A stretch of DNA of 62,051 nt from Patescibacteria group bacterium (GCA_035946335.1 DASYZL010000001.1:1-62051); one strand, 5' to 3'. Positions 19,134 to 61,619 are shown, counted from the stretch's first letter. Notes: generated by a model not told the origin, from the letters alone. Translations and numbers: made by a program.

Positions 19134-19151
19134 AGGATTTTCTGTATTGTA

Positions 19152-20753: not shown

Positions 20754-20754
20754 A

Positions 20755-25623: not shown

Positions 25624-25632
25624 GATATTTGA

Positions 25633-28934: not shown

Positions 28935-28935
28935 A

Positions 28936-39141: not shown

Positions 39142-41214
39142 TTATAGAGGAAGCGTGATGTTTTCTCCATCATGTGCTTGTTTTTTCAGGATTGTTCTTG
39201 CGGTGTTTCCTTTTTTGTCGATAAGTATTAAACTTCCACCATCACTGCCGTGTAAGCGCGATTGATATTGTTTTTCAAATCCATTTACTCCCTGGTATGT
39301 CGTGCTGCTGTAAATAGCTGTACAGCATTCGTTCGTATTCATAACATCCACAGGGATGCTTTGTGTATACACGCGTGATGGGTAGGGAATAACTGATAAA
39401 CCTTGAAATGAAAGAATTGCAGATTTTGTTGCTTCATTCCATAGATAAAAAGATGTGAACAGCGGAATTACTTGTCCAGGGTATGGATTCTCAAGATAGG
39501 CATTTTGTATGTGCTCTTTTTCAATTCCCGATAGGTTACTTAAGTATAAGAGCATGTGTATCTCTTTTTGCCTGCTATATTTTTGAGGATCAATCAAAAC
39601 CTCATAGCCATCAATATCCTGCACAAGAATGTTGCCAGTTTTATCTGTTACTGATCCTCTTTTACCAAAAGTAACTCTTGCTATTAATATGTCTCCAGGC
39701 TGGAAACTATTCAGTAAATCATTCCAATCCCAAATAACTTTCCAGACATTATCTGTTTTTTGAAACCGGATTGTTTTTTTCTCCTGAAAACTACCTAAAT
39801 TCCTTGTTGCATAGGTCATGACACCCGAAACAATAAGCGAATCGTGTGCTTGCGTTTCTCCTGTTTGATGAAATGAGACAGACTGTATTTGCCCCTCTTC
39901 ATAGGCCTTTTGTGCAATAAGACGAAATACAGACCTGTTTGGAAGATGTTGATTATTGTCTATGTCTTCCATATATACATCCTGAAAATATCCATGAGAC
40001 ATATTGTAGAGAAAATAAGAAAGTACCGGCTGCACTGAAGGAGTAAGAAAGCTGTGTAGATAGACGAAAAAACCTATGCCAACGATATACAAACTACTTA
40101 TAACCATAACACGCCACTTTTCAATACCTTTTGTAATGTATTGGGCAGTAAAAAAATACAGAAATGGAAGAACAAGAAGTATATAACGCGTATAAACAGG
40201 GATGAAGAGGAATAGAAATATTGCAGCAATAACATACAGAGTAAGCATTTTTTTAACCAAGGAGTGATGCGTAATCCAGATGTTAATCATTCCAAAAATA
40301 CTGACAATAATACTAATGGGCCAAATGATCCACCATTCCTGTATTACAGTTAACACCCCGTTGCTAATATCCGGAAATTTTCCTAAAAAGAAAATATCAA
40401 ATAATGCTTTATGATGAACAGGTAGGTGTGATTTTGCATAAAATGCAATAATATACTTTTGCAATTTCAAAAAATCCTTAATGGAATAACCCAAGGCAAA
40501 GTACCTGCCATACGGAAAGAGAAATCCTGTGATACATCCCAAACAAAGCAAGAGAAACGGGAACAGTTTATGCTTTTTATAGTAAGCAAATGCAAAGAGG
40601 AAAAATAGAATAGGTGAAAGAATGGGAAATTTAATGGTGGAAAACAATCCGAGTGAAATTCCTGATAGAAGCGAAAAATACTGAGAAGCAGAAAGCGATT
40701 TTAGAAATGTCCAAATACTGAGAAGAAGAAAGAATACCTGCATGATATCTAATGAGCTGCTAACCAGTTGCGAGGCAAAAAGCGGATCACTAGCAAGAAG
40801 GAACGTAGCGAATAAACCGACCATGGACTTACCGGATACTGTTTTACCAATGAGAAACAGCAGAATAATACTGCCAATCCCAAGGAAAAGTGTTGCATAA
40901 TATGGATTGCCAAAAAGTAAAATAGAAAAACCTAGTAAGTATTTTCCAAGCGGTCCGGTTTCAGGATTAAACTGTGAGGGGTCAGCTCCATGCACCAATG
41001 TATATCCGACATAGGCAAACAATCCATCATCACCAACAGTTCTTTGGGACAGTGGTAAAACCCACTGCGAATGCTCTACCCTATCTTTCCAATACAATCC
41101 GTCGTATTTACTGAAAAGTAAACTTCTCTGGGAAAAAATAATTTGTCCAAGTTGCAGTAAAATGAAAAGGGAAAGAACGAATGAAGCTATTTTTTCTGAT
41201 TTGAGGAGAATCAT
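39142..41214 (-). CDS. fusion protein: N-terminal GT-C (PMT_2-like, family D) membrane domain plus C-terminal class B PBP-like non-catalytic (NTF2-like and dimerisation/pedestal) region
   Basis: The N-terminal half of about 430 aa is homologous to 9806..10942. The C-terminal 250 aa ('FQKTDNVWKVIWDWNDLL...GKRGSVTDKTGNILV...GVNGFEKQYQSRLHGSDGGSLILIDKKGNTARTILKKQAHDGENITLPL') reads like the N-terminal half of PBP2a-type class B PBPs. It ends where the transpeptidase would begin. Confidence 0.6.
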   Translation of the reverse strand: MILLKSEKIASFVLSLFILLQLGQIIFSQRSLLFSKYDGLYWKDRVEHSQWVLPLSQRTVGDDGLFAYVGYTLVHGADPSQFNPETGPLGKYLLGFSILLFGNPYYATLFLGIGSIILLFLIGKTVSGKSMVGLFATFLLASDPLFASQLVSSSLDIMQVFFLLLSIWTFLKSLSASQYFSLLSGISLGLFSTIKFPILSPILFFLFAFAYYKKHKLFPFLLLCLGCITGFLFPYGRYFALGYSIKDFLKLQKYIIAFYAKSHLPVHHKALFDIFFLGKFPDISNGVLTVIQEWWIIWPISIIVSIFGMINIWITHHSLVKKMLTLYVIAAIFLFLFIPVYTRYILLVLPFLYFFTAQYITKGIEKWRVMVISSLYIVGIGFFVYLHSFLTPSVQPVLSYFLYNMSHGYFQDVYMEDIDNNQHLPNRSVFRLIAQKAYEEGQIQSVSFHQTGETQAHDSLIVSGVMTYATRNLGSFQEKKTIRFQKTDNVWKVIWDWNDLLNSFQPGDILIARVTFGKRGSVTDKTGNILVQDIDGYEVLIDPQKYSRQKEIHMLLYLSNLSGIEKEHIQNAYLENPYPGQVIPLFTSFYLWNEATKSAILSFQGLSVIPYPSRVYTQSIPVDVMNTNECCTAIYSSTTYQGVNGFEKQYQSRLHGSDGGSLILIDKKGNTARTILKKQAHDGENITLPL

Positions 41215-42309: not shown

Positions 42310-45300
42310 TCAATGTAGTTTCAAAGCTTCTATTTCTCCATTACTCGCTTCTGCATTATTTGGATCAATAAGTAGGGCATTTTCAAATGCTTGTAGCGCA
42401 TTATGATAATCTTTCATATCTAAGTAAGCATATCCAATACAACTATGTAAACGACTCCTTCTTGGTTCAATATCCAGTGCCCTTTTATATTCTTCATATG
42501 CTTCTGTTGGCTTACCTAATAATCTCAATGCATCACCTCTATACATAATGGACATCCAATTATTTGGATTAAGTGACAGTGCAAGGTTAAATTGATCGAG
42601 TGCTTCTTGATATTGCTTTTGTTGCAATTGCACATTTCCCTTGCCATTCATCGCCCAAATATCTACTGGATTTAGATCTAACGCTCTATCAAAATCTTGA
42701 AGTGCTTCGCTATATCGTTGTAAATGATGATGCGCTTCTCCTCTACGAAAAAACGCAATATCGTTTTCCGGATTAAGAGCGATAACTTTATCGTGAGAAC
42801 TCATGGCTTCTTGATACCTCCCGAGTTCATTTAATGCATTTCCTCTCCCTAAATGAGCTTCAATATTTTCAGGATCAAGCTGTGCTGCGCGGTCAAATTG
42901 CTCTAACGCATCATCATATTGCTCTAGTGATTCATAATCTAATCCTGATAATACAAGAGCGCTCGCCTCACGAACCCTGATATCATGCACGATACCCTCA
43001 GTTCTAGTTTTCGCTGCTATGACATCTGGATAGTTTATCATCCGTTTATTTGGATTATCAACCCGAAGTGAACTTGTTAAAGCAATAAGTGCTTCTTCAT
43101 ATCGTTGAAGATCTAATAAGACAAAACCTTTTTTCATCCATGCAACACTATCTTGATACTGACAAGCCTGTAATGCTTGCTCGTAAACTGCTAATGCTTC
43201 ATCTGGTCTCATAAGTTGCCTGAGCATATCCCCCTTACCCTTTAATGCGTCAATGTACTGTGGGTCAATTTGGATAGCCTTTTCAAATGCTTCCAAGGCA
43301 GCTTCATGTTCATCAATCGTAATACTTACATTGCCAATATTAAAATAAGCTAACTTATTCTCAGGAAATATTTTTATTGCTTCATCATATTTTCCTAGTG
43401 CTTCTGTTAGTTGATCTTTGTCTTCAAGCTCTTTAGCTTCCCTAACTAAATTCATTGAGTCCCTTTTATTTTGAATAGAAACACTTTTTTCTAAACTCTG
43501 AATTCTTTTTGCAAGGCTTTTATCGTGACCATTTAATGAATATGCAATATTATATGATTTTAACGCTTCAGGTAACCTATTTTGTATTTCTAATATTTCT
43601 CCTATACTTACTAATACAGATATATTTGCTTTATTTTTTGAGAGTATTTGTGCATACACCTGCAAAGCTTCTTCATATTTTTTCATGTACGTCAGCAATT
43701 TACCTTTACGAAAAGATGGCTCATAATTTCCTGGATTAAGTGCGGTTGCTTTATCATATTCTACTAGTGCATCTTCAAACCGGAACATTCTCGTGAATAT
43801 GTCACCTCTTTGCAAAAAGTAGTACTCATGAGGAGCAAGGGCAATAGCCTGATCGTATGCGGCAAGTGCCGTCGGATACTCTTTCATTTTGAATAAAATA
43901 TCACCACGATACTCATGATGGGAAACATCGTCTGGTTCAATTTGAATCAATGCATCAACTGCTGAGAGCATTCCATTTAAATCTCCAACTTTACCACTTG
44001 CTTCAAGTTTTCCATCTAATGCTACCTTATTTGAAGGATCTATTTTTAATGCTCGTTCATAAGCTTTCAATGCGGTAACAGGATTATTGCTCCGCAAGAG
44101 AATATTACCTTGCTCAACTTCCCTGTTTACCTCCTCTAAATCTTGACCAGCACGTATTTCCCTTACTTCTGACCTTGTTTTTCTCCAGACTTTTGACAAT
44201 AAAGCCATAGGACCTACCCCATCAGGTGGCGCAAGTTGCAATATTTGCTGATCACCGCTCATTTGCACATCGCCCTGAGAAACATTTGGCTCAGTTTGTG
44301 TGACATTGTATGAACGTCTCGGTTGATTCCTAGGATTTTGCCAAACTCCTAGTGTTGTTCTCTCCGGTAGAGTAACAACAGTCATCTGATCTGCAACAAT
44401 AGGATTTGGAAGATTACCAACGGTACTACTAATAGATATATATCCTACAGGTTGTTCCGGTTCACTAAGAACTCTTAAGTACGCATTGATTCTTGCTTTT
44501 CCATAATCTTCTACTGTTGCATATCTATCTTCCTGCTTTGGTGCCATACCTCTTCTTACTACCGGCCAACCTTCTTCAGGTATAGGACCAGATAATCCTT
44601 TCTGTGTGAAGGAAGGCGGTTCAACAGTTTCATGAAGTTCTAGCCAATAATCATTTTTTGCCTCTTGACTCAATTTTCCGTATTCTTTTTCATAGGACTT
44701 AGGAATTCTAAAAGGTGTCTCACCAACAGCAGACCAATAGTCTGTAACCGCAAGTCCATATTGATCACTAAAAGATGACGCTTTATTCCGGAATTGCTCT
44801 GGAGCCATAAAGAAAACTGTCCCTCTTAGTTCCTTATGCTTTGCGGGTTCAGCTCCTTTAAGCAAAGAACTGATAAGAGCAATATCAAAATCATTTAACC
44901 AAAGATTACCCTCATTCAATAATAAATTACCGAGTTTGACGTCACAATGAATTATCCCTTTTCCATGCGCAGCTTGCAGAGCACTTGCAGCCTGATATAT
45001 ATACCTCGGTAAATCATGCTGCTGAAACCTGCCGTAAACGCTAACGACATCTTTCATCGACCCATCCCTTGCGTAACCTAATGCAACAAAGTTAACTCTT
45101 CTTCCTCTCTCAAATCCCGAGCCATAATATGGCACAACATATGGATGCTGCAAGGCACTTAACCGTTCTAATGCAGTTTTTTCTATTTCAAAGCCATTTC
45201 TGACATCTTCCCCTCCCATTAGACCGTTTTGCGATTCGTTTGCAAATGCTTTTATTACCACTGGAAAACCTGTAGGCGTTTCAGTAAAGTATACTTCAGC

Positions 45301-45387
45301 ACCTCCTCCTTTACCCAATAGTCCTTGCACACGATATCCCGGATGCCCTGAATCGTTTACAATATAGCCTTGTTCAAACATACTCAT
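42310..45387 (-). CDS. Ser/Thr protein kinase (Hanks-type) fused to about 16 tetratricopeptide repeats
   Basis: The kinase has 'GKGGGAEVY' (Gly loop), 'VVIKAF' (Lys), 'IIHCDVKLGNLLL' (catalytic loop), 'NDFDIA' and 'MAPEQF'. From about aa 430 there are repeated 34-aa 'G..l....y.eAl..y..Al.ldP.n' units. No TM segment is visible. Confidence 0.85.
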   Translation of the reverse strand: MSMFEQGYIVNDSGHPGYRVQGLLGKGGGAEVYFTETPTGFPVVIKAFANESQNGLMGGEDVRNGFEIEKTALERLSALQHPYVVPYYGSGFERGRRVNFVALGYARDGSMKDVVSVYGRFQQHDLPRYIYQAASALQAAHGKGIIHCDVKLGNLLLNEGNLWLNDFDIALISSLLKGAEPAKHKELRGTVFFMAPEQFRNKASSFSDQYGLAVTDYWSAVGETPFRIPKSYEKEYGKLSQEAKNDYWLELHETVEPPSFTQKGLSGPIPEEGWPVVRRGMAPKQEDRYATVEDYGKARINAYLRVLSEPEQPVGYISISSTVGNLPNPIVADQMTVVTLPERTTLGVWQNPRNQPRRSYNVTQTEPNVSQGDVQMSGDQQILQLAPPDGVGPMALLSKVWRKTRSEVREIRAGQDLEEVNREVEQGNILLRSNNPVTALKAYERALKIDPSNKVALDGKLEASGKVGDLNGMLSAVDALIQIEPDDVSHHEYRGDILFKMKEYPTALAAYDQAIALAPHEYYFLQRGDIFTRMFRFEDALVEYDKATALNPGNYEPSFRKGKLLTYMKKYEEALQVYAQILSKNKANISVLVSIGEILEIQNRLPEALKSYNIAYSLNGHDKSLAKRIQSLEKSVSIQNKRDSMNLVREAKELEDKDQLTEALGKYDEAIKIFPENKLAYFNIGNVSITIDEHEAALEAFEKAIQIDPQYIDALKGKGDMLRQLMRPDEALAVYEQALQACQYQDSVAWMKKGFVLLDLQRYEEALIALTSSLRVDNPNKRMINYPDVIAAKTRTEGIVHDIRVREASALVLSGLDYESLEQYDDALEQFDRAAQLDPENIEAHLGRGNALNELGRYQEAMSSHDKVIALNPENDIAFFRRGEAHHHLQRYSEALQDFDRALDLNPVDIWAMNGKGNVQLQQKQYQEALDQFNLALSLNPNNWMSIMYRGDALRLLGKPTEAYEEYKRALDIEPRRSRLHSCIGYAYLDMKDYHNALQAFENALLIDPNNAEASNGEIEALKLH

Positions 45388-45393
45388 AAAATA

Positions 45394-47016
45394 TTAAGTA
45401 AAATCTTCTTCATCGAGTTTTTCTCGTTCTTTATTAACATGTTGCTGTGTTTGCACTAAAGGTTCAAACAAGTGATTCAATATGGTAAATCTACCCAAAT
45501 AGTCGGTAAATGTTTGTAAGTTTCCGGCTATTTGTTCTCTATTTGGAAGTAATTGTCCATAATAAGAACTTACTTCACTCCAACCATTTTGATCCGCAGT
45601 GCGTTTCATCCTTGTTAATAAAACTCCGATATCTTCGCTAGTCATGTCAGAAGAAATAAGTGATACTGAACCTTCACCAAGAAATAATCTTATATTTCCT
45701 TTAATAATATCTGCTAGATTTGTTACAGCTAACCGTTTTACTTCTTCTACATCTGGAGTTTCAATTCCCCTTTTTCTTGGTTCGGTAAGTTTTGCATCAT
45801 ACACTTGATCAATAAGCTCCATTCTATATTGTGAAGCTCTTGGAGAAGAACGTAATACCTGTAGTTCATTTTCTGTAAGGGAATATTTGAGGTATGCTTC
45901 AGGGTTCCATTGATACTCTTGTGTTAATGAAGCATTAATACTCTCAATATCACCTTTCAACTGACTCGTTAAGAGATAATGAAGAAAAAACAAATAATTA
46001 ACTGGAGAACCTGGAAATTCAAGGTGCACTTTTTCGTCGTTATCCTCAGTTTTCTCAGGAGAAACTTTAGGACGTTGAAGTTGTAATACGTTTTCTTGGT
46101 AAACTGGTTCTTCAACTTCTTCTATGATCTTATATTCCCCTTCGATTGATTCTTGTGGTATTGACTCTTGTTCTAGTCCAGCAATCTGACGTGCTTTTGT
46201 TTTAGCTTTTGAATGATTAGGTTGAGGTTTTTCAGAAACAACTAAAGCATTTGATTGAACATTTTGTGGCTCTGGAACAGTTGGAGTTTTTATGACACTT
46301 TCTGTCTCACTTTCATCTTCGATTATGCTTCGTTTCCTAGTAATTTCTTCATCAACTTGTTCATTGAACGTTTGCTGATGAATATCATTCCTTAGTAAAC
46401 CTTCCTCTGTACTCACAAACCTTCTTGGGCTATCCTGGATTTCAGTATTATATACACTTTCTAATGTTGGAGAAAATTGAGGTTCATTGGTTGTTCTTAA
46501 TGTTACTGTATCTTGGTCTGCTAGGAAAAAATCAACTCGAGCTACTTGCACTGACCCCAAAGTTGGAGTCATTGTCGGGTAGGATCCTGTTATTTTTTGA
46601 GTTAATTCAGACTCAGTTAAGGAAAGTTTGTTCTCATAATACTGAGTCATTGCCTTAATTAGTGCGAGTCGAATCTCGCTTTGGATTCTCACTTTCGTTG
46701 GATCATTTCTTGTTTCAGAAGTTATTCTTGAAAACTCTTGTCCAATCGTATTAATCCCCTGATGTACTTCTGAAAGTTCGTTGCAAAGTGCAATGACAAA
46801 ACCAGGATTATATAGTTCCATACTAAAATGTTGAGATTCTGGATCAGCTACATCAAGAGTAAATCGTAAACCTTGTAAAATAGCAATATCCGACATTTTA
46901 GAAATATCCACTATACTCTGTTGATTTTTTCTCCTCTCAACTCCAGTTACTTTTCTAAGAAGACTCCCTGCTCTATATAGCAATTTACTTTTTCCTGATT
47001 CAACTTGATCTTTCAT
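45394..47016 (-). CDS. hypothetical protein (acidic, no recognisable domain)
   Basis: 540-aa ORF sitting tightly between the kinase and phosphatase genes (6-nt and 19-nt gaps). The central part is E/Q/S/T/P-rich and low in complexity. There is no TM segment and no motif I recognise. Confidence 0.6.
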   Translation of the reverse strand: MKDQVESGKSKLLYRAGSLLRKVTGVERRKNQQSIVDISKMSDIAILQGLRFTLDVADPESQHFSMELYNPGFVIALCNELSEVHQGINTIGQEFSRITSETRNDPTKVRIQSEIRLALIKAMTQYYENKLSLTESELTQKITGSYPTMTPTLGSVQVARVDFFLADQDTVTLRTTNEPQFSPTLESVYNTEIQDSPRRFVSTEEGLLRNDIHQQTFNEQVDEEITRKRSIIEDESETESVIKTPTVPEPQNVQSNALVVSEKPQPNHSKAKTKARQIAGLEQESIPQESIEGEYKIIEEVEEPVYQENVLQLQRPKVSPEKTEDNDEKVHLEFPGSPVNYLFFLHYLLTSQLKGDIESINASLTQEYQWNPEAYLKYSLTENELQVLRSSPRASQYRMELIDQVYDAKLTEPRKRGIETPDVEEVKRLAVTNLADIIKGNIRLFLGEGSVSLISSDMTSEDIGVLLTRMKRTADQNGWSEVSSYYGQLLPNREQIAGNLQTFTDYLGRFTILNHLFEPLVQTQQHVNKEREKLDEEDFT

Positions 47017-47035: not shown

Positions 47036-50000
47036 TCAAGTTCTTCTAGTTCTAAGTAATCTATCTTCTTCTTCTATTTTTGCTCTGAGTTTTTTTTGTC
47101 TTTCTTCTTCGGATTCTACAAGAAGATCAACTACCTGTATTGTCAAATTATCACCTGCTAAATTTCTGGATCTATAATTATTATTAAAATAGTCATATTC
47201 ATCTATCGCTCTTTGATATAAAAATCTAGCAGCATCTCGAGGATCTTTTATATTTGAAATAATATTGGCTACATATTGATTTACTTCATCATGGGAAACA
47301 GTATACCGTCTAGACAACAAAGGTATTAGATTTCTTAAAGCCTTTTTGCGCAATAATTCACGTTTCATTGTATTCCATAATCCATCAGAGGCTATTATCA
47401 ATCGTTTATGTTGTGGCTGTAAAATAATATATCTAACATCGGGCACTACCGAGCTACCAGGAAAGGTCATGCGGTCTCCAAAAGCCCTTGCTACATTTAC
47501 ACCAGCACTTCTATCTTGATACGCAAGCCTTTTTCCTCTGCTAGTATCTTCAGAAACATATTCTTTAAGTTTTCGATCCCTTTTCATCTCGCTTTCTACA
47601 TCGTGATCTACTGTGAGTTGCACCGCCCTGTTATTGCCATCAACTAATATCGCACGAGAATCACCTACATTGCCTGTAAAAAGATTATTTCCTTGAATTA
47701 ATACTGCAACTGCTGTTGCCCCATGAGGAATACTAAAGTCTTCCATTGCTTCTAACATATTTTCTGCATCTTCGAAGCTATTGTACATTGCCCTTCCCTC
47801 AGGTTCACCTTTTTTCAAATTATCGAGCAACATCTTTGGATGCAATAGAGTTAGATCCCTTGCTATAGTTATGCCTGCATTTTGATGACCTGAATGTGCA
47901 TCAACAGTTAAAAGATATACCGAATCTTTACGTCCTCCAAATTCTTCAATGTAAATCTGGTTATCTTCATTTCTTTCTCTAACGTACTCCTCAGTTCCTG
48001 GCTTCTTTGGTCCTTGACCATGGGCTATTCCTACTCCTGTTATAGGTAACTTCTCATAATGAATGCTTGCTTCAACTTTTATTTTTCCATCACTTCCAGC
48101 TGGATTAAAGACAGCATCTGGGTCTTCCACTTCAACTAATGCACTTCCATCCAAAATTGGGCTATCAGGTTTGGCACTTTTTTTATCATGTATCTCATCT
48201 ATTTTTCTTAAAAGTAATGGATTTGACTGAGAATCATCTGATAACTTGTTTTCTCTGTTTTTTAACCATTGAGCTAAAGTTTCTCTTTCCGATTCACTCT
48301 GAAGGAGTTCATCAAACAATTCGCGTACAACATCTTCATCCAAAATATTATTAAGCTGATGAATTCTATTATATTCTTCACTAAATGGACTTTCTTCATT
48401 AAAGGTAAGAAAATTAACTAAGTTTTCTCTTGTCGTATACGCTCCACCATTTCCGTGTATGTCGCTCGTGAGAAAGTTAATATCTTCTAGTATCTCCTTC
48501 CAAAATTCTCTATGTTGCTTTAATTTTGGATGAAAACCAAAAGTACCCGCAAGATCATCGATTGCTCTCCTTGATTCTCCTCGCTCTCTTACTCCATCAA
48601 TAACAGCTACTCCTCCTCTACCAATAAGCATAAGAGCCTCTTCCCCTCCATGCAGAGCCAATTCAAGTGCCGATTTGAATACATTTCTATTTGCTGACTG
48701 AGATCGTACTACTGCTGGTGTTACTGATGTGCTACTGCTTATTTTACCTTTCTTATCTTCTTCATCTTCACTAGATGTCGGAGGATTAACTGTGGCATCA
48801 ATGGAAGGATTGTTGCTGCCCCCGCTAACTGGTTGATTACCAATACGTATGCGTTTTATTCTATTTTTTTCATAAAAATGATATCCAACCCACGTTACTG
48901 TAATCAATGCAAGAGTACCAAGTGCTATACCCACACCGAGCAAGCCTCCATTTTTGCATTCTCCAGCGATTGTACTGCCACAGTCACCATCTGACGGTAG
49001 TGGATTAGTAGGCGGTGTTCCACTATGTTTTGTGGTACTCGTCTGCGTTAGTGTAGGATTTGGCTTCGCAGTGTTGGTTGGAACAGGCGTAGAATTTTCC
49101 GTAGAAGATGGAGTCGGACTGGGATTTGGAGTAGGCGTTTGGGTACCAGTAGGATGAGTTATTACTCCAGAGGTGTTGTTGGCAGTATCAACAGTAACCT
49201 GAGATAAATGATTTCCAACTTCGCCGTGTGCTGATAATCCTGAAATGTGATCTATTAACTCCATGCTTTGAATAGTTCCGTCCCGGTTATAGACTATATG
49301 CACATTTTCCCCATCCAGATATAACTCGTGTTGGTCTGTCATTTCGCTCGCTCTTCCAAAAGCAGATTTGGTTACATCAAGCGTTTTATGGTCATTACTA
49401 CCAAGAATTAACTGTGCCAATTCTTTTTGTGACATTTTTGCAGACTTACCATTTTCAATTACTGTAACTAATTCGTTTGAATTTGGATTGAACTGTTCAT
49501 TATTTCCCTCAACAACTATTGCTTTCTGATATCCTTTGGTATGATCATAATATATCCATGCATTTCCTTTCGTGTTTTCTCCCCAGTCATGGTATCCCTG
49601 GGTTTGAGACCAGTTGTCACGTCCTGTTTGCCAATCAGCTTGATTTTGATCTACTGTGATTTGCGTGTGACTGAGATCAGTTTCAACTTTTTTCAATACA
49701 CTGGTATAATCAACTGGCTGCGCAGTCAGTTGCTCAGCATGTAATTCTGTTGCAGATACTGCATCATGTGTAGCTAGTGATGTGATATGTTCAGCGTGAT
49801 CAACCGCAAGAGAAGCAGCATGAACAGTTTGCGACAATAGTTCAGCGGCTGTTGCGGTAGCTGCAATTAATCCACTTGCAGATAGCACACCCCGAACAAT
49901 TGTCCTGTTTCTTGCAAATCGTGCTTGCCATTTTGCGTCTTCCCGGGCTCGATCATCAAGTTGTTGCGATACTTCCAGAGCAATTTGATTCAGCGTCGCT

Positions 50001-50929
50001 TGATTAACATCTCCAATTTCTTGTGCAAGCTGTTTTCTTTTTTCCACTAATTCAGGGAGCATAGATTCATCACGGTAATATCCTCTTTGTATCCGCTGAT
50101 CTATTTCTTCATAAAGACGGATACGTTGCGAGTCAGATCCTTCTAGAAGTAATTGATTGCTTGCTTCAATATCTTCCTGGACATCTTTTAGTCTTTTGTG
50201 TCCTTTCGCTCCGGCAGTTGCAACCGCTGCTTCTTGGCTTAACGGAGAAGCAAGAGCGCCAACATAGGAAAAACCTTTTTGTATTACTTCCTTTACGTTT
50301 CTTGGCTTATATGCGTTCACTGCCGCTACATTTGCTTTAATTCGCTGTAACCAATGCATATACTTTTCTCCTCTTCCCGTTGCCTGCAATTGTAGCCGTG
50401 CAATCTCAACAGCTTCCTCAGCTTTCCTATGCGCTTCATGCATATCTCCTATAGATTTTGCGGCTCTGTGCGCTACGACCAATCCCGCACCAATCGGAGG
50501 CGCTACTATTCCTGCTGCAGTCAACGCTCCCGCGATTGCGTAGGTCGCGAACTGTTCACGTTTTCTGAATGTGTTTGCGACAGCATTAGCAAGATCTCTT
50601 GCATTATTTCTATCTGCTACCTGTAGCGTACTATTTTGCTGTAACGCTGCATAATTTGTTCTCTCAGCAGTCTGCATTACTAAAGCTGCATCAGCAACTA
50701 TTGGAGATTGGGCAAACTGTTGTCGCTGCTCTCTCCTGAGTTCCGCCACTACATCTCCTCTGATAAATGGTGTTAAATCATAGGTAAACGGCCGTTCATA
50801 CCAATGAAGCTCTTTCACCCTCGAAGCAACGATGTCTTCAACTTTAGCGCCAAACTGAGCTTCTGACTGCAAATAATCAGCTTGGGCAGGAGAAACTACT
50901 GGTTTAGATTGTAATTCGATTTGTGACAT
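47036..50929 (-). CDS. large receptor-like PP2C (PPM-family) Ser/Thr phosphatase
   Basis: The C-terminal domain carries the full ordered PPM motif set: 'RERNED', 'LTVDAHSGH', 'HGATAVAVLI', 'NVGDSRAIL', 'LTVDHD', 'ARAFGD', 'IIASDGLWN', 'AGDNLTIQVV'. A TM helix 'LLGVGIALGTLALITVTWVGY' is followed by 'KNRIKRIR', and a Pro/Thr-rich linker precedes it. Confidence 0.85.
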   Translation of the reverse strand: MSQIELQSKPVVSPAQADYLQSEAQFGAKVEDIVASRVKELHWYERPFTYDLTPFIRGDVVAELRREQRQQFAQSPIVADAALVMQTAERTNYAALQQNSTLQVADRNNARDLANAVANTFRKREQFATYAIAGALTAAGIVAPPIGAGLVVAHRAAKSIGDMHEAHRKAEEAVEIARLQLQATGRGEKYMHWLQRIKANVAAVNAYKPRNVKEVIQKGFSYVGALASPLSQEAAVATAGAKGHKRLKDVQEDIEASNQLLLEGSDSQRIRLYEEIDQRIQRGYYRDESMLPELVEKRKQLAQEIGDVNQATLNQIALEVSQQLDDRAREDAKWQARFARNRTIVRGVLSASGLIAATATAAELLSQTVHAASLAVDHAEHITSLATHDAVSATELHAEQLTAQPVDYTSVLKKVETDLSHTQITVDQNQADWQTGRDNWSQTQGYHDWGENTKGNAWIYYDHTKGYQKAIVVEGNNEQFNPNSNELVTVIENGKSAKMSQKELAQLILGSNDHKTLDVTKSAFGRASEMTDQHELYLDGENVHIVYNRDGTIQSMELIDHISGLSAHGEVGNHLSQVTVDTANNTSGVITHPTGTQTPTPNPSPTPSSTENSTPVPTNTAKPNPTLTQTSTTKHSGTPPTNPLPSDGDCGSTIAGECKNGGLLGVGIALGTLALITVTWVGYHFYEKNRIKRIRIGNQPVSGGSNNPSIDATVNPPTSSEDEEDKKGKISSSTSVTPAVVRSQSANRNVFKSALELALHGGEEALMLIGRGGVAVIDGVRERGESRRAIDDLAGTFGFHPKLKQHREFWKEILEDINFLTSDIHGNGGAYTTRENLVNFLTFNEESPFSEEYNRIHQLNNILDEDVVRELFDELLQSESERETLAQWLKNRENKLSDDSQSNPLLLRKIDEIHDKKSAKPDSPILDGSALVEVEDPDAVFNPAGSDGKIKVEASIHYEKLPITGVGIAHGQGPKKPGTEEYVRERNEDNQIYIEEFGGRKDSVYLLTVDAHSGHQNAGITIARDLTLLHPKMLLDNLKKGEPEGRAMYNSFEDAENMLEAMEDFSIPHGATAVAVLIQGNNLFTGNVGDSRAILVDGNNRAVQLTVDHDVESEMKRDRKLKEYVSEDTSRGKRLAYQDRSAGVNVARAFGDRMTFPGSSVVPDVRYIILQPQHKRLIIASDGLWNTMKRELLRKKALRNLIPLLSRRYTVSHDEVNQYVANIISNIKDPRDAARFLYQRAIDEYDYFNNNYRSRNLAGDNLTIQVVDLLVESEEERQKKLRAKIEEEDRLLRTRRT

Positions 50930-50949: not shown

Positions 50950-51276
50950 TCAGCCTTGTAAATAGTTTTTTCTGAAATCTGAAAACGCGACAATATATAC
51001 TTCCTGTATATTTGGCACATTCGATTTGAGAAACGTATCAACCTGTTCTTTCGATGGAGACTGCTGCATGAAAGTGCAAAATTCGCCAAGCTTATCAACC
51101 GGCACATAATCAACAACACGCTCAATAAGAAAATCATCGAACTTGATAAATAACTCCAGAATTATATCTTCTTTGGTAGCATCATAAACAGTAGTTATGC
51201 CGGATTGAACGAGAATATCTTCCAGATATGAACGAACTTCTTTCGATATGGCGGCTGTTTTTTGTCCTGTTTTCAT
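50950..51276 (-). CDS. hypothetical small acidic protein
   Basis: 108-aa ORF that is the first gene of the signalling operon, ending 20 nt upstream of the PP2C gene start. It looks helical and has no recognisable motif. Confidence 0.5.
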   Translation of the reverse strand: MKTGQKTAAISKEVRSYLEDILVQSGITTVYDATKEDIILELFIKFDDFLIERVVDYVPVDKLGEFCTFMQQSPSKEQVDTFLKSNVPNIQEVYIVAFSDFRKNYLQG

Positions 51277-51416
51277 GGAATGTTGTAATGCTAAAAACGA
51301 ATTACTATTATAGGACGCTGAGGTTGTAAAGTCAATGTAATATACGAAAAATGTGTCTCATTACCGCATTCTTTAAAATAGCCTCGGACGCCTATTGACT
51401 GCATTGGACGGCCAAG

Positions 51417-51781: not shown

Positions 51782-52600
51782 ATGTCTCTACCGCATATTA
51801 CTAAAAAACAATTCGAAATACTTACGCTTATCTATTCCTACAGATTCATTAACCGCATACACATACAAACCATCCTTAACCACAAAAACCACCGACGGAT
51901 ACATGCATGGCTCAATGACTTAGGAGAAAAGGAATGTATCGGAAGAATTTACTCAAAGAAAATGCCGGAGAACACCAAACCCGCAGTGTATTTTCTTGGG
52001 AAATATGGCCGCAAAATCCTGCAGAAACATTTTAGTGAACTAAAGAATAAAGAGGGGAAAAACAAACCGGACAAAATAGCATTGTATCAACTCACCAAAA
52101 CATACAAAGATAATCAGAGAACTGAAGTTTTCCGCCTCAGTTGTCTTGCGCTTGTCGATATATCCATCACAACCACAGCGTATGGCATCAGAGAAAGAGT
52201 GCATATTGCATTCCGATCACTCACTGAATGTGCCAAAACCCAGTTGATTGAAAAATTTGATTCATATGTACGAGTACAGAAGAAAAACGGAAAGAAGAAA
52301 CGCTACGCTTTTTTATATATTTCAAATAGAACACCCCGCAGGTTTATTCGCTACCGCATCGCTGAAATTATTAAGTTGCTTGATCGCGAATGGGACTCTG
52401 AAACAGATATTCCCCGACCGGTAGTTTTGTGCATCTGTTCCAATTTTTCTATCCGTAATTACGCCTGTAAAATCTATGAAACAAAAATGAAATACTATAA
52501 GAGAACTGACAAGCAGGTTACCTTCCGACTAACTACCCTTCATGAATATAAAACACAAGGGTTAGGCGGTAGTTACTGGTTGCTACCAAAGACTCCATAA
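51782..52600 (+). CDS. replication-relaxation (Replic_Relax)-like protein
   Basis: The N-terminal 'ITKKQFEILTLIYSYRFINRIHIQTIL...RRIHAWLNDLGEKECIGRIY...KPAVYFLGKYGRKIL' has the winged-helix layout of replication-relaxation family proteins from plasmids and integrated elements. It is one of only three plus-strand genes. Confidence 0.45.
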   Translation: MSLPHITKKQFEILTLIYSYRFINRIHIQTILNHKNHRRIHAWLNDLGEKECIGRIYSKKMPENTKPAVYFLGKYGRKILQKHFSELKNKEGKNKPDKIALYQLTKTYKDNQRTEVFRLSCLALVDISITTTAYGIRERVHIAFRSLTECAKTQLIEKFDSYVRVQKKNGKKKRYAFLYISNRTPRRFIRYRIAEIIKLLDREWDSETDIPRPVVLCICSNFSIRNYACKIYETKMKYYKRTDKQVTFRLTTLHEYKTQGLGGSYWLLPKTP

Positions 52601-55938: not shown

Positions 55939-56664
55939 TTATGCTTTCCAGGGACGCGTCGTGAGAAGACGGTACATAACCCTGATATCTCCAAGGATCG
56001 TTGAGTACAGTCTGACTGTTGAACCCGGATTGTCAACCCAGTGTACCGGCTCTTCATAGATTTTGTACCCCATTTTTTCCCCAACTATTAACAGTTCCCC
56101 ATCAAAAAACCAGCCGTTATCAAGTATTTTGGGAATTAAGGTATCGACTGTATGTCTAGTTACCCCTTTAAAACCACATTGCGCGTCGGTAAAATGCGTT
56201 TGGAAAAATAGTTGAATAAAAAAGAAATTCATAGTCCGTGATATAAATTCGCGAAGCATGGACCTTCCCTCAACTTTTGATTCTTTTTTTAACCTTGAAC
56301 CTATTGCAATGTCATACCCGTCTTGCAATTTTTCCAAAAGGTGTGGTAAATGCTGTAAATCAGTTGATAAATCAAGATCCATATAGACACAAAAATCGGC
56401 GTTAGAATCACTCCAGACACGTTTCACTGCTCTTCCCCGTCCTTTAATTTCAAGGCGAAACAGGGAAACATTCGGATACTTTCGAGCAAGGGTTGAGGCT
56501 ATTATCGGCGTATTGTCATCTGATGCGTTATCAGCAATGGTAATATGCCAGTCATACGCTTTCAGATGTTCAGAACAATAATCAGCAAGTATGGTAATGT
56601 GTTTTTCCAGCTCTTTTTCTTCATTATACACAGGAACGGTAATTTCAACTGTTTTCTTCGTCAT
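55939..56664 (-). CDS. GT2 glycosyltransferase, polyprenyl-phosphate sugar synthase-like
   Basis: 'VEITVPVYNEEKELEKHI...ITIADNASDDNT...GRGRAVKRVW...VYMDLDLSTDL...DAQCGFKG'. Confidence 0.7.
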   Translation of the reverse strand: MTKKTVEITVPVYNEEKELEKHITILADYCSEHLKAYDWHITIADNASDDNTPIIASTLARKYPNVSLFRLEIKGRGRAVKRVWSDSNADFCVYMDLDLSTDLQHLPHLLEKLQDGYDIAIGSRLKKESKVEGRSMLREFISRTMNFFFIQLFFQTHFTDAQCGFKGVTRHTVDTLIPKILDNGWFFDGELLIVGEKMGYKIYEEPVHWVDNPGSTVRLYSTILGDIRVMYRLLTTRPWKA

Positions 56665-58291
56665 AGTATATTATACCAAGGAACAGGAAAACGATGCCAG
56701 CAAGAGAAAGCGTGTCACCTGTTTTTTCAAGATTCGTTTGCTGAAATTCAAGACGAATCGTGTGGTTGCCACTAGGAATACGGGCAGACATACCATTTTT
56801 AACCTGTTGGAGAAAAATTTCAGTACTGCCGCTATACAGATGCCAGGCAGGAAAATATGTGAGATTGACATGCATTGTCTGAGGAGTAGTAAAATGGGTT
56901 ATGAATACTTTCTCCTGCGTTTTATCTAAAATAACCGTAACCTGCTTTGCAGTGATAAAACCTTGCGGAACGTTTTTAATGGTTTTTGGTTTGGAAAACG
57001 TTTTGGGCATATATTCATCAGATATCTTTGACGCGGTAAAACGAAGCATGGAAGAAGTTGTGTAGTACGAAGACGGATACGATGTGTAATACTCCGGGAT
57101 AAAAAATTTTGTTTGCAACAAGAGAACGGAAAGAACAAGCGGAGCGGTATACAACGGGATGAGAAGATGCTTTTGAGGGATAGGTATATTGTGTAAAAAT
57201 ACCATACAGCTTCCTGCAAGAAGAGAGGTAAAAAAGGAACTGAGAATAAGAAACCGCCACGGGTATTGAAAGTATGCCATAAGTTTTATTGCGTTCCAGA
57301 TAACCAGAGCATACTGGGTTTGGATAAAAAGTGAAAAGAGAAAGCCGAAAAAAAGAACAAAAACAAGAAGCGAAACTGCTTTATTTTTTCTAAAAAATAA
57401 CACTGCCAACAGAAGCGCTACAAAGGAAAAGATAATATGTAACTTTCCAACCATAAATGACAACCCATCGTTACACCCTGGCACTGATCCGCCATATTCC
57501 CATGGCGAATACCAGAATTGCATTGGGCAAACAAAATTGTTGTGAAAGTCAGCTCCACCAGTAATTTGCGATAACACATTTGTATAGACACTTTCTGTTA
57601 GTGCCGGTAACCAATAGAACGAAGCAATAAACAATCCCAAAAGAAAAGTAACAAAACCACTCCATGTTTTTTTTGCAACAACTCCCCATATGGCAAGAAG
57701 CAAAAGAAGCGGGGAAACCATTAGCGCTGATAAATTGTGTGAACAAATAAGCAGAGCAAATGAGATTGCGCCAGTAACAAGGTATTGCCATTTTTTTTCC
57801 TGGATAAATGCAATGAATCCAAAAATAGCCAATGGCAGCAATCCATACGCATACAATTCTCCAATATCTCCTCTGACAAATATATCCACTGCATGATATG
57901 TTGCATAAGTATAAAAAACTGCTGCCAGCATACCCCCATATATTCCCCACAAATATTTTCCCAAAACATATATCCCGATACCTGATAAAAGTATGCCAAT
58001 ACCGATCATCATTTTTGTTGCAACTAAAGCAGAAAATCCGGATAACAGAAACAATGCACCAATATAATACGCAAAGGGACCATAAAAATTAAAAATAGGA
58101 TACCCGTACCCGTATCCCAAGTCCCTCACCCATCTGACTGGAAACATGCCGTCTTTGAGTGATTGAGTCATTTCATAGACACGTTGCACTTGTACATTAT
58201 CATGCACGGGAAAAAAGCCGGGGTAAAACAGTGGCTTCACTGCAAAAAAAGAAAGCAAGAGAATAATGATAAACGGAACGAGTTTTTTCAT
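56645..58291 (-). CDS. polytopic membrane protein, GT-C-like, family C
   Basis: 'FPVHDNVQVQRVYEMTQSLKDGMFPVRWVRDLGYGYGYPIFNFYGPFAYYIGALF' is paralogous to 58296..59945. The C-terminus is a beta-rich soluble domain. Confidence 0.5.
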   Translation of the reverse strand: MKKLVPFIIILLLSFFAVKPLFYPGFFPVHDNVQVQRVYEMTQSLKDGMFPVRWVRDLGYGYGYPIFNFYGPFAYYIGALFLLSGFSALVATKMMIGIGILLSGIGIYVLGKYLWGIYGGMLAAVFYTYATYHAVDIFVRGDIGELYAYGLLPLAIFGFIAFIQEKKWQYLVTGAISFALLICSHNLSALMVSPLLLLLAIWGVVAKKTWSGFVTFLLGLFIASFYWLPALTESVYTNVLSQITGGADFHNNFVCPMQFWYSPWEYGGSVPGCNDGLSFMVGKLHIIFSFVALLLAVLFFRKNKAVSLLVFVLFFGFLFSLFIQTQYALVIWNAIKLMAYFQYPWRFLILSSFFTSLLAGSCMVFLHNIPIPQKHLLIPLYTAPLVLSVLLLQTKFFIPEYYTSYPSSYYTTSSMLRFTASKISDEYMPKTFSKPKTIKNVPQGFITAKQVTVILDKTQEKVFITHFTTPQTMHVNLTYFPAWHLYSGSTEIFLQQVKNGMSARIPSGNHTIRLEFQQTNLEKTGDTLSLAGIVFLFLGIIYYDEENS

Positions 58292-58295
58292 AGCA

Positions 58296-61602: not shown

Positions 61603-61619
61603 GCAATCCGGATGACACT

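What the first reader, a model, noticed from the sequence alone, without database searches (positions are those of the whole stretch)
47036..50929. 1297-aa PP2C with a receptor-like architecture and a Pro/Thr-rich juxtamembrane linker
Seen in sequence: a complete PPM motif series sits in the last ~300 aa. It runs RERNED, VDAHSGH, GATAVAV, GDSRAIL (about 47651..47665), VDHD, RAFGD, ASDGLWN and GDNLTIQVV. A clear TM helix 'LLGVGIALGTLALITVTWVGY' (about 48880..48952) is followed by the positively charged 'EKNRIKRIRIG', which places the PP2C in the cytoplasm. Directly N-terminal of the helix are a Cys pair ('DCGSTIAGEC') and a ~55-aa linker, 'HPTGTQTPTPNPSPTPSSTENSTPVPTNTAKPNPTLTQTSTTKHSGTPPTNPLP' (about 48985..49158). 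There is no N-terminal signal peptide, but a hydrophobic stretch 'YAIAGALTAAGIVAPPIGAGLVVA' near residues 130-155 could be a first TM. That would give a roughly 500-aa external domain consisting of an Ala/Gln-rich helical part and then a beta-rich part. There is also a ~300-aa unassigned cytoplasmic region between the TM and the PP2C. Established knowledge: Pro/Thr/Ser-rich linkers are the classic acceptors of GT39 protein O-mannosyltransferases in actinobacteria and fungi. Inference: this linker is a plausible in-cis substrate for the neighbouring GT39-like enzymes. That would connect glycosylation status to phospho-signalling.
Basis: partly seen in the sequence, partly recalled or inferred. 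Interest (0 to 1): 0.65.

Follow-up and report, generated by a model that had tools for sequence, protein, structure and literature searches.

The report
Membrane-anchored PP2C with orphan sensor module
This gene encodes a real membrane-anchored PP2C protein phosphatase that sits in an operon with a soluble TPR protein kinase and belongs to a very rare, unnamed protein family, but nothing supports the suggested link between its Pro/Thr-rich stalk and the neighbouring glycosyltransferases.

Summary
The 1297-aa ORF (47036..50929, minus strand) and every listed feature exist. These are a complete PP2C domain (Pfam PF00481, E=1.6e-30), one strong TM helix (res 663-683) followed by a basic cluster, a 54-aa P/T-rich linker and a Cys pair, which are the protein's only two cysteines.

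An exhaustive search of 1.84 billion protein representatives with res 1-591 found only six relatives, all unnamed and metagenomic. Sequence homology is confined to the N-terminal helical region (res ~18-399). The layout is shared by the full-length members: hydrophobic segments, then a K/R-poor region, a P-rich linker ending 7-15 aa before the TM (shorter in P0009), the TM itself, and a variable cytoplasmic tail. That tail carries one of two PP2C subtypes or no PP2C.

A DUF5663-like small gene lies directly upstream in 5 of 6 loci. A homologous kinase+TPR gene follows in two of them.

Charge analysis in all six members places the external part between a second, weaker hydrophobic segment (res 347-365) and the TM. 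That gives about 300 aa outside, not about 500, and puts the Ala/Gln-rich helical part in the cytoplasm. This is an inference, because no topology predictor was available.

The GT39 and glycosylation idea is unsupported. The neighbours are only weak GT-C/PMT_2 matches, and the relatives keep the linker without any GT-C neighbours. Verdict: a new variant of a known kind, of moderate interest.

The parts
51307..51335 (-). Promoter-like site TTGACT-17-TATAAT, about 30 nt upstream of the small gene. It is the likely start of the operon.
   Evidence: 11 of 12 matches, joint best in the region; the total number of sites is not above shuffles; sequence. This is a consensus match only.
50950..51276 (-). 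DUF5663-like small soluble protein (108 aa), the conserved partner gene directly upstream of the large gene.
   Evidence: Pfam PF18908 at E=4.2e-4 and 21.3 bits, just below the 23.7 cut-off. Orthologues lie directly upstream of the large gene in L001, L002, L003 and L006, with 33-42% identity and 24 invariant columns. All five hit PF18908. No hydrophobic segment was found.
47036..50929 (-). The 1297-aa membrane PP2C gene (whole ORF).
49733..50878 (-). N-terminal helical domain (res ~18-399). This is the only part with sequence homology to the six relatives. It defines an unnamed orphan family.
   Evidence: Exhaustive phmmer search, with 6 relatives at E 3e-32 to 5e-8; alignments A1 and A2. There is no Pfam, PDB or Foldseek match. 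AF2 is confident only for helices at res ~245-335.
50471..50542 (-). Segment 1 (res 130-153): a conserved, uncharged Ala/Gly-rich stretch with a central Pro-Pro/Pro-Gly.
   Evidence: KD 1.84; crude Hessa sum +4.6; TopPred-like GES score 1.64. Conserved in 5 of 6 members but polar in P0009. K/R flanks are symmetric, 3 before and 3 after.
49835..49891 (-). Segment 2 (res 347-365): a moderately hydrophobic candidate signal-anchor that would take the chain out of the cytoplasm.
   Evidence: KD 1.44; crude Hessa sum +4.4; GES score 1.13. There are 5 K/R in the 15 aa before it and 0 after, and the same asymmetry holds in the relatives (3-8 against 0). The change-point of K/R density falls here.
49157..49834 (-). 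K/R-poor, acidic, His-enriched region with beta strands (res 366-591): the proposed external sensing domain.
   Evidence: Over res 366-662, K+R is 0.054 against 0.12-0.17 elsewhere, with net charge -19. Beta strands appear in the AF2 models at low confidence. There is no detectable sequence homology to the relatives' equivalent region.
48995..49156 (-). P/T/S-rich linker (res 592-645): a stalk between the external domain and the membrane.
   Evidence: An equivalent linker ends 7-15 aa before the TM in 5 of 6 family members.
48956..48985 (-). DCGSTIAGEC (res 649-658), holding the only two cysteines of the protein. This is a candidate disulphide loop just outside the membrane.
   Evidence: It is not conserved in the relatives.
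48881..48943 (-). Main TM helix (res 663-683), oriented out-to-in.
   Evidence: KD 2.11; crude Hessa sum -0.6; GES score 2.04; 1 K/R before and 5 after.
47987..48871 (-). Basic stop-transfer cluster (res 687-697) followed by a cytoplasmic region of ~285 aa with no recognisable domain. This region is not conserved in the relatives.
47129..47986 (-). PP2C/PPM catalytic domain (res 982-1267) with all the metal-binding motifs.
   Evidence: PF00481 at E=1.6e-30. The best solved relatives are plant HAB1/ABI1 at E~2e-12.
45394..47016 (-). A 540-aa soluble protein of unknown function, 19 nt downstream of the PP2C gene in the same operon.
   Evidence: Searches gave no significant match anywhere. No TM segment was found.
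42310..45387 (-). Soluble Hanks-type Ser/Thr kinase (res 18-241) with a long TPR array. It starts 6 nt after the 540-aa gene and is the likely cognate kinase.
   Evidence: Pkinase at E=4.9e-24 and TPR_1 at E=2.4e-83; no TM. A homologous kinase+TPR gene directly follows the family member P0009 in L004/L005 (BLASTP 1e-51 over the full length).

Best explanation
The gene encodes a membrane-anchored Mn2+/Mg2+-dependent PPM (PP2C) Ser/Thr phosphatase with its catalytic domain in the cytoplasm. It is the phosphatase arm of a kinase/phosphatase pair, together with the soluble TPR kinase two genes downstream in the same operon.

The most likely topology has both ends inside:
- Res 1-346 form a cytoplasmic helical domain. 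It includes a conserved Ala/Gly-rich hydrophobic element that may dip into the membrane.
- Res 347-365 act as a weak signal-anchor.
- Res 366-662 are outside: a His-rich segment, a beta-rich domain, a 54-aa P/T stalk and a Cys loop.
- Res 663-683 return the chain to the cytoplasm.
- An unassigned region of ~285 aa and the PP2C domain follow.

The conserved core of the family is the N-terminal helical domain plus a co-encoded DUF5663-like small protein. The external domain and the cytoplasmic output vary between members. The protein is therefore best read as a modular envelope sensor or scaffold that here carries a PP2C output.

Shown: the ORF, the PP2C domain and its motifs, the strong TM and its charge bias, the rarity of the family, and the conserved partner genes.

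Inferred: the topology of the N-terminal half, the kinase/phosphatase partnership, any sensing function, and the operon structure.
For: - PP2C domain and motifs. The same motifs align with the PP2C of P0003 and P0004.
- TM orientation: 0-1 K/R before and 4-6 after in the five members where the scan detected this TM.
- External region bounded by segment 2 and the TM: K+R is 0.02-0.065 there against 0.10-0.17 in the other three regions in all six members, with net charge -13 to -22. An unsupervised change-point scan recovers the interval from segment 2 to the TM end in 5 of 6 members, for example 347-687 in this protein. There are 3-8 K/R before segment 2 and none after. The only two cysteines lie in the juxtamembrane external stretch.
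- Operon: gaps of 20, 19 and 6 nt on one strand, and a promoter-like site upstream of the small gene.
- Conserved partners: the DUF5663-like gene is directly upstream in 5 of 6 loci. A kinase+TPR homologue is directly downstream in L004/L005. A kinase domain lies next to P0003.
- Variable output: the PP2C of this protein is of the PF00481 type, whereas P0003 and P0004 carry the PP2C_2 type with only E~1e-3 similarity. P0006, P0008 and P0009 have no PP2C.
Against: - Segment 2 is only marginally hydrophobic (crude Hessa sum +4.4 to +5.9; GES 0.8-1.1). In the higher-GC relatives it contains an Arg and a Glu.
- The K/R depletion could reflect domain type (beta-rich and linker regions against coiled helices) rather than location.
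- No dedicated topology predictor could be run, and both AlphaFold models are poor (pLDDT ~40).
- The kinase association is seen in only 2-3 of 6 loci, and the L002 kinase has a different architecture and is convergent.
- Substrates and signal are unknown.
Confidence: 0.5

Rival explanations
1. Segment 130-153 is the first TM, so res 154-662 (~500 aa: the helical part, the beta part and the P/T linker) lie outside. The P/T linker is O-glycosylated by the neighbouring GT-C (GT39-like) enzymes, which couples glycosylation status to phospho-signalling.
For: - Segment 130-153 is a 24-aa uncharged stretch with KD 1.84 and GES 1.64, higher than segment 2. It is conserved in 5 of 6 members.
- P/T linkers are documented acceptors of GT39 mannosyltransferases in actinobacteria and in Caldicellulosiruptor (PMC12757957).
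- The window holds many GT-C paralogues, one of which passes the PF02366 cut-off.
Against: - K/R flanks of segment 1 are symmetric (3 and 3). The region 154-346 has the highest K+R of the protein (0.166). The K/R change-point falls at segment 2, not at segment 1, in 5 of 6 members.
- The equivalent of segment 1 is polar in P0009.
- The GT-C paralogues give only weak PMT_2 hits and no PMT_4TMC, and their NCBIfam hits to Agl23 and ArnT are below threshold.
- The relatives keep the linker without GT-C genes nearby.
- No other ORF in the window has a P/T-rich stretch.
Confidence: 0.25
2. A three-TM topology. The N-terminal ~129 aa are outside, segment 1 runs out-to-in, res 154-346 are cytoplasmic, segment 2 runs in-to-out, res 366-662 are outside, and the TM returns the chain so that the PP2C is inside.
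For: A TopPred-like GES scan of my own calls all three segments 'certain' in this protein. This topology also satisfies the K/R asymmetry at segment 2 and at the TM, and the low-K/R interval.
Against: - It needs export of a 129-aa N-terminal tail without a signal peptide, with 3 K/R just before segment 1.
- K+R of res 1-129 is 0.116, like the cytoplasmic regions.
- The soluble, signal-less DUF5663-like partner is absent from the one locus (P0009) whose protein has no detectable homology to query res 1-147. This hints that the N-terminal region is cytoplasmic. That link is an inference.
Confidence: 0.12
3. The block is an accessory or defence-type island, consisting of a kinase, a phosphatase and unknown proteins acquired horizontally, rather than an envelope-sensing housekeeping system.
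For: - The family is extremely rare and patchy, spanning loci of 37% to 51% GC.
- The relatives sit next to TIR, NB-ARC/TPR STAND, IS110 and NYN genes.
- A Replic_Relax-like gene lies divergently upstream in the window.
- The kinase matches PADLOC PD-T4-6 kinase models.
Against: - The PADLOC hits are generic kinase-domain matches. The PP2C protein, the small protein and the 540-aa protein have no PADLOC or meaningful PHROG hits.
- No relative was found in the viral contigs.
- No flanking repeats or composition break mark an island.
- L004 has a housekeeping and cell-envelope context: MraZ, RsmH, GlyRS, RecO and glycosyltransferases.
Confidence: 0.08

Closest known systems
PstP (Rv0018c) of Mycobacterium tuberculosis, a membrane PP2C paired with the kinases PknA and PknB
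   Same: It is a PPM/PP2C phosphatase anchored by a single strong TM helix. The catalytic domain is cytoplasmic, with a juxtamembrane linker and an extracellular domain of ~190 aa (PMC3052367). It is encoded with Hanks-type kinases and acts on them and on their substrates.
   Different: - PstP has the PP2C at the N-terminus and an N-in/C-out topology. Here the PP2C is C-terminal, and both ends are probably cytoplasmic.
- The protein here has an extra conserved N-terminal domain of ~350-400 aa, a DUF5663-like partner and an unassigned cytoplasmic insert of ~285 aa.
- The partner kinase here is soluble and carries TPR repeats instead of being a membrane PASTA kinase.
- The NCBIfam Stp1/IreP model scores only 43 bits against a 230-bit cut-off.
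SpoIIE of Bacillus subtilis (from my own knowledge; listed as a PPM in PMC6213207)
   Same: Membrane segments lie at the N-terminus, followed by a central regulatory region and a C-terminal cytoplasmic PP2C domain.
   Different: - SpoIIE has about ten TM helices and no sizeable external domain or P/T stalk.
- Its substrate is the anti-anti-sigma factor SpoIIAA, not a Hanks-kinase pathway.
- There is no PF07228 (SpoIIE) match here.
Plant clade-A PP2Cs (HAB1, ABI1) and the eukaryote-type PP2C family PF00481
   Same: These are the best sequence matches of the catalytic domain among solved structures (E~2e-12). PF00481 scores 107 bits.
   Different: They are soluble enzymes regulated by ABA receptors. 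Only the catalytic core is shared. The similarity places the domain in a subfamily and says nothing about shared regulation.
PknG-type soluble Ser/Thr kinases with a C-terminal TPR domain (from my own knowledge), for the partner kinase
   Same: A soluble Hanks kinase domain is followed by TPR repeats and has no TM.
   Different: No rubredoxin-like N-terminal domain was detected. The TPR array is far longer (res ~430-1025). The kinase has HCD and DFD in place of HRD and DFG (read directly from the sequence).

Membership tests
PPM / PP2C Ser/Thr phosphatases (PF00481) | Significant match to the family profile, above the curated cut-off | tested here: met
   PF00481 at 107.1 bits against a cut-off of 20.3, E=1.6e-30, res 982-1191. 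PDB PP2C hits reach E~2e-12.
PPM / PP2C Ser/Thr phosphatases (PF00481) | Conserved metal- and phosphate-binding residues: Arg and Glu-Asp of motif I, Asp of motif II (DGHGG-like), Asp of DGxW(D/N), and Asp-Asn of the last motif | tested here: met
   Read directly from the sequence: RERNED 984-989, VDAHSG 1009-1014, SDGLWN 1181-1186, GDNLT 1259-1263. The same columns align with the PP2C motifs of P0003 and P0004. Which motif binds metal is from my own knowledge.
PPM / PP2C Ser/Thr phosphatases (PF00481) | Mn2+/Mg2+-dependent phosphoserine/phosphothreonine phosphatase activity | not testable with these tools
   This needs an enzyme assay.
PstP-like membrane phosphatase with a cognate Hanks kinase | Co-encoded Hanks-type Ser/Thr kinase | tested here: met
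   A Pkinase+TPR gene lies two genes downstream on the same strand with gaps of 19 and 6 nt. A homologous kinase follows the relative P0009.
PstP-like membrane phosphatase with a cognate Hanks kinase | N-terminal catalytic domain, single TM, C-terminal extracellular domain | tested here: not met
   The catalytic domain is C-terminal, and at least one further hydrophobic segment precedes the external region. The protein works like PstP but is not an orthologue. The Stp1/IreP equivalog model scores 43 bits against a 230-bit cut-off.
SpoIIE-type membrane PP2C | About ten N-terminal TM helices and a PF07228 domain | tested here: not met
   Only 2-3 hydrophobic segments are present, and there is no PF07228 hit.
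   Among the paralogues scanned, nine hit PMT_2 (PF13231) at E 1e-12 to 2e-4, some below the cut-off. PF02366 passes its cut-off in one (59932..61704, 30.5 bits) and falls below it in two. No PMT_4TMC hit appears at E<=1e-3. The NCBIfam hits to Agl23 and ArnT are below threshold.
   It is external under all three plausible topologies, judged from the charge bias of the TM and the upstream hydrophobic segments. No dedicated predictor or experiment was available.
   No PMT or PMT_2 gene lies within the fetched flanks of any of the five relatives' loci, although the linker is conserved. The contigs are short, so this is weak negative evidence.
   This needs mass spectrometry.
DUF5663 (PF18908), for the upstream small protein | Match to the family profile above the curated cut-off | tested here: inconclusive
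   The window protein scores 21.3 bits against a cut-off of 23.7 (E=4.2e-4, near full-length). All five orthologues hit the family, with a best E of 4.2e-5.

The most novel reading that the evidence does not exclude
The six proteins define a new modular transmembrane signalling family. A cytoplasmic N-terminal helical domain, with its DUF5663-like partner and a membrane-dipping Ala/Gly hairpin, is coupled through an external stalked domain to interchangeable cytoplasmic outputs (two PP2C subtypes, a possibly degenerate PP2C, or none). The family serves as the missing membrane receptor or scaffold for soluble TPR Ser/Thr kinases. In this genome it would tie envelope or glycan status to phospho-signalling.
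Probability: 0.25. Interest if true: 0.6.

Novelty: new variant of a known kind. Interest (0 to 1): 0.4.

Why it matters
Membrane-anchored PP2C phosphatases paired with Hanks-type kinases are known, PstP being the model. What such phosphatases sense through their external parts is largely unknown.

This gene shows the same logic built on an unrelated and extremely rare scaffold, with only six relatives among 1.84 billion representatives. That scaffold has its own conserved small partner protein and interchangeable outputs.

If the topology and the kinase partnership hold, the family would be a compact system for asking how a soluble TPR kinase is connected to the cell envelope in an organism whose genome devotes tens of kilobases to surface glycan synthesis. 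It would also give DUF5663-like proteins a first functional context.

The glycosylation idea would matter only if the stalk were shown to be modified, and nothing here points to that specifically.

Tried and rejected
1. Word-indexed homologue searches failed. The full protein returned only itself. Res 690-980 returned nothing. The family alignment A2 returned nothing, although members exist in the collection. Low-complexity and Ala-rich words probably swamped the candidate list. All knowledge of relatives therefore comes from the single exhaustive search.
2. Structure prediction was poor. Single-sequence AF2 of res 128-661 gave pLDDT 40. AF2 of res 1-575 with the 7-sequence alignment gave pLDDT 40.5, with only res ~245-335 confident. 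Foldseek against the PDB gave nothing better than E=0.78. No fold assignment is made.
3. Profile and sequence searches of the PDB found nothing significant for the N-terminal family, the small protein, res 690-980 or the 540-aa protein. Two short-fragment PDB searches meant to display the PP2C motifs were uninformative.
4. Attempts to extend the family through DNA collections added nothing. A2 was too divergent for pattern scans. A3 found nothing in species-representative genomes or viral contigs. In the metagenome contigs it found only a locus with the same gene layout and the same 1101-aa ORF length as L003.
5. Taxonomy of the window could not be established. There are no tRNA genes. A nucleotidyl-transferase query found only 29-31% identical hits in unrelated phyla. 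My impression of a Patescibacteria/CPR origin (37% GC, GT-C arrays, DUF5663) is not tested.
6. I tested whether the 540-aa protein or res 690-1297 correspond to the long C-terminal extension of P0009. They do not.
7. I looked for island boundaries (direct or inverted repeats) around 41-53 kb and found none that are convincing.
8. Weak sub-threshold NCBIfam hits to sigma-factor regions (SigW and SigH, E~0.02-0.06) were judged to be chance.

Full report
OBSERVATION

The ORF 47036..50929 on the minus strand encodes 1297 aa.

- Pfam PP2C (PF00481) matches res 982-1191 at E=1.6e-30 and 107 bits.
- The PPM motifs lie at res 984-989 (RERNED), 1009-1015 (VDAHSGH), 1070-1076, 1089-1095 (GDSRAIL, 47645..47665), 1107-1110, 1148-1152, 1180-1186 (ASDGLWN) and 1259-1267 (GDNLTIQVV).
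- The strong hydrophobic helix is res 663-683 (48881..48943). It is followed by EKNRIKRIRIG.
- The Cys pair lies at res 649-658.
- The P/T linker is res 592-645 (48995..49156).
- The Ala/Gly-rich stretch is res 130-153.

C650 and C658 are the only cysteines in the whole protein. The linker is 70% P/T/S over 40 aa. No other ORF of the window exceeds 45%, and the linker is not a DNA tandem repeat.

CATALYTIC DOMAIN

The best solved relatives of the PP2C domain are plant clade-A PP2Cs (HAB1 and ABI1, E~2e-12). The bacterial Stp1/IreP equivalog model scores only 43 bits against a 230-bit cut-off. The domain is therefore a eukaryote-type PPM core. The residues known to bind the metals and the phosphate are all present (direct reading), so I expect an active enzyme.

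A VERY SMALL FAMILY

The word-indexed searches failed. The exhaustive phmmer search of res 1-591 against 1.84 billion representatives found only six relatives, at E from 3e-32 to 5e-8. All are metagenomic and unnamed. Two are fragments whose full-length forms are P0008 (1101 aa) and P0009 (1414 aa).

Sequence homology to the window protein is confined to res ~18-399. Its beta-rich region is not detectably related to theirs. The architecture, however, is shared:

- An N-terminal helical domain with an uncharged Ala/Gly-rich segment.
- A second, moderately hydrophobic segment.
- A region of ~230-300 aa that is poor in K/R.
- A P/T/S-rich linker that ends 7-15 aa before the TM in five of six members.
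- One anchor TM with K/R after it.
- A variable tail.

P0003 and P0004 end in a PP2C of the PP2C_2 type. It resembles the window's PP2C only at E~1e-3. P0006 and P0008 share a different tail with no PP2C hit, and P0009 has a long unrelated extension. The N-terminal module is thus the constant part, and the output is interchangeable.

GENE CONTEXT

In the window the genes follow each other on one strand with gaps of 20, 19 and 6 nt. In order they are:

- A 108-aa DUF5663-like gene (50950..51276).
- The PP2C gene.
- A 540-aa gene with no match to anything (45394..47016).
- A 1025-aa soluble Hanks kinase with a long TPR array (42310..45387).

A TTGACT-17-TATAAT site lies ~30 nt upstream of the small gene.

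The small gene is conserved directly upstream of the large gene in L001, L002, L003 and L006. Identity is 33-42% with 24 invariant columns, and all five copies hit PF18908. It is absent only from L004/L005. The protein there, P0009, also has no detectable homology to res 1-147 of the window protein.

In L004/L005 the large gene is followed directly by a 1301-aa kinase+TPR gene that is homologous to the window's kinase over its full length (BLASTP 1e-51). A kinase domain of a different architecture lies convergently next to P0003. No paper in the library mentions DUF5663.

TOPOLOGY

No topology predictor was available, so I used scales and charge statistics.

- Main TM: clearly membrane-spanning, with KD 2.11, a crude Hessa sum of -0.6 kcal/mol and a GES trapezoid score of 2.04. 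It has 1 K/R in the 15 aa before it and 5 after, so the PP2C side is cytoplasmic.
- Segment 1 (res 130-153): KD 1.84, GES 1.64, Hessa +4.6, with symmetric K/R flanks.
- Segment 2 (res 347-365): KD 1.44, GES 1.13, Hessa +4.4, with 5 K/R before it and none after.

The asymmetry at segment 2 recurs in the relatives, with 3-8 K/R before and 0 after.

In all six proteins K+R is 0.10-0.17 in each of three regions: before segment 1, between segments 1 and 2, and after the TM. Between segment 2 and the TM it is only 0.02-0.065, with net charge -13 to -22.

I then ran a change-point scan that was given no boundaries. It returns 347-687 for this protein (segment 2 starts at 347 and the TM ends at 683). 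It returns the equivalent interval, from segment 2 to the TM end, in four of the five relatives.

Segment 1 is among the best-conserved stretches in five members. This is unusual for a simple anchor. It is polar in P0009.

I therefore favour a model with both ends inside. Res 1-346 are cytoplasmic, with segment 1 as a buried or membrane-dipping Ala/Gly hairpin around its Pro-Pro/Pro-Gly centre. Segment 2 is a weak signal-anchor, and res 366-662 are outside.

Rough probabilities:

- The favoured model with both ends inside: about 0.5.
- A three-TM model with the N-terminus outside: about 0.1-0.15.

The weak points of my model are the marginal hydrophobicity of segment 2 and the possibility that K/R depletion reflects domain type rather than location.

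GLYCOSYLTRANSFERASE NEIGHBOURS

The window is largely a surface-glycan locus. It holds GT1, GT2 and GT4 enzymes, Wzx-like flippases, sugar-nucleotide enzymes, and a tandem array of ~540-aa multi-TM GT-C paralogues.

Those paralogues match PMT_2 only weakly. One passes the PF02366 cut-off, none shows the PMT_4TMC domain, and the NCBIfam hits (Agl23 and ArnT) are far below threshold. They are GT-C-fold enzymes whose acceptor is unknown.

P/T linkers are documented GT39 acceptors (PMC12757957). However, the relatives keep the linker in loci without any GT-C gene, and no other ORF in the window has such a stretch. The linker is thus a family-intrinsic stalk next to the membrane. Its proximity to GT-C genes in this window is not conserved. 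Glycosylation remains possible but has no specific support.

MECHANISM

Shown:

- A complete PP2C lies on the basic side of a strong TM.
- An operon-like arrangement includes a soluble TPR kinase.
- The DUF5663-like partner is conserved.
- A kinase+TPR partner recurs in another family member.

Inferred: the protein dephosphorylates the kinase and/or its substrates at the membrane. Its external stalked domain and its cytoplasmic N-terminal module, with the small protein, regulate or localise this activity. One member with a kinase partner has no PP2C at all (P0009). The common function of the family is therefore more likely scaffolding or sensing for the kinase than dephosphorylation as such.

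COMPARISON WITH KNOWN SYSTEMS

- The closest functional analogue is PstP of M. tuberculosis, with a cytoplasmic PP2C, a juxtamembrane linker, one TM and a 191-aa extracellular domain (PMC3052367). The order of the domains is inverted here and there is no orthology.
- SpoIIE shares the C-terminal PP2C but has about ten TMs and a different pathway.
- The kinase resembles PknG-type soluble TPR kinases.

This is therefore a new variant of a known kind of system, built on an orphan N-terminal module.

WHAT REMAINS UNKNOWN

- The fold of the N-terminal and external domains. Both AF2 models were poor and Foldseek found nothing.
- The role of res 690-980 and of the 540-aa protein.
- The organism.
- The signal and the substrates.

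Noticed in passing
window 15940..32230 and 56645..61704 (- strand): A tandem array of at least ten multi-TM GT-C paralogues of ~490-590 aa with weak PMT_2 hits. They are interleaved with GT2 genes inside a glycan-synthesis locus of more than 50 kb that also holds Wzx-like flippases, GT1/GT4 enzymes and sugar-nucleotide enzymes. The acceptor specificity is unknown.
   Followed up: partly
window 39142..41214 (-): A 690-aa protein combining an N-terminal multi-TM GT-C-like part (weak PF02366 hit at res 109-211) with a C-terminal penicillin-binding-protein dimerisation domain (res 517-674). No transpeptidase domain was detected. This is an unusual fusion.
   Followed up: no
window 51782..52600 (+): A 272-aa ORF with a weak Replic_Relax (PF13814) hit and a weak PHROG replication-initiator hit. 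It is divergent from the DUF5663/PP2C operon across a 505-nt intergenic region. No flanking repeats or GC break indicate an island.
   Followed up: partly
window 49655..49834 (res 366-425), and the equivalent regions of P0003, P0004, P0006, P0008 and P0009: The stretch just after hydrophobic segment 2 is His-enriched in the family, with 4-9 His in 60 aa. The whole external region holds 5-10% His against 2.4-4% elsewhere. This may be a metal- or pH-responsive element. The enrichment is significant in only some members.
   Followed up: partly
L001 8157..9423, L003 1041..2469, L006 761..1924, L003 16205..18084, L002 947..2059: The relatives' loci carry an ECF-type sigma factor with an adjacent unknown gene of 216-232 aa (L001 and L003), a TIR-domain gene (L006), an HTH_3/NB-ARC/TPR STAND gene (L003) and an IS110 transposase (L002). 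This suggests variable or accessory genomic neighbourhoods.
   Followed up: no
P0006 and P0008 C-terminal tails (L006 3295..6216, L003 4779..8084): The tails of these two members are 43% identical to each other. In the full alignment a stretch (…AGAMILRSDGSYILG…) lines up with the GSTxxV…NVGDSR strand of the PP2C domains but lacks the catalytic residues. This may be a degenerate PP2C (pseudophosphatase). It rests on one alignment only.
   Followed up: no
window 42310..45387 (-): The partner kinase has HCD instead of HRD and DFD instead of DFG, while keeping the VxIK lysine, the catalytic Asp/Asn and the APE motif. It is a non-RD kinase with an unusual Mg-loop.
   Followed up: no
window 45394..47016 (-): A 540-aa acidic soluble protein lies between the phosphatase and kinase genes. 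It has no match in Pfam, NCBIfam, PHROGs, PADLOC, the PDB or the relatives' loci. It is a candidate substrate or adaptor and is entirely uncharacterised.
   Followed up: partly
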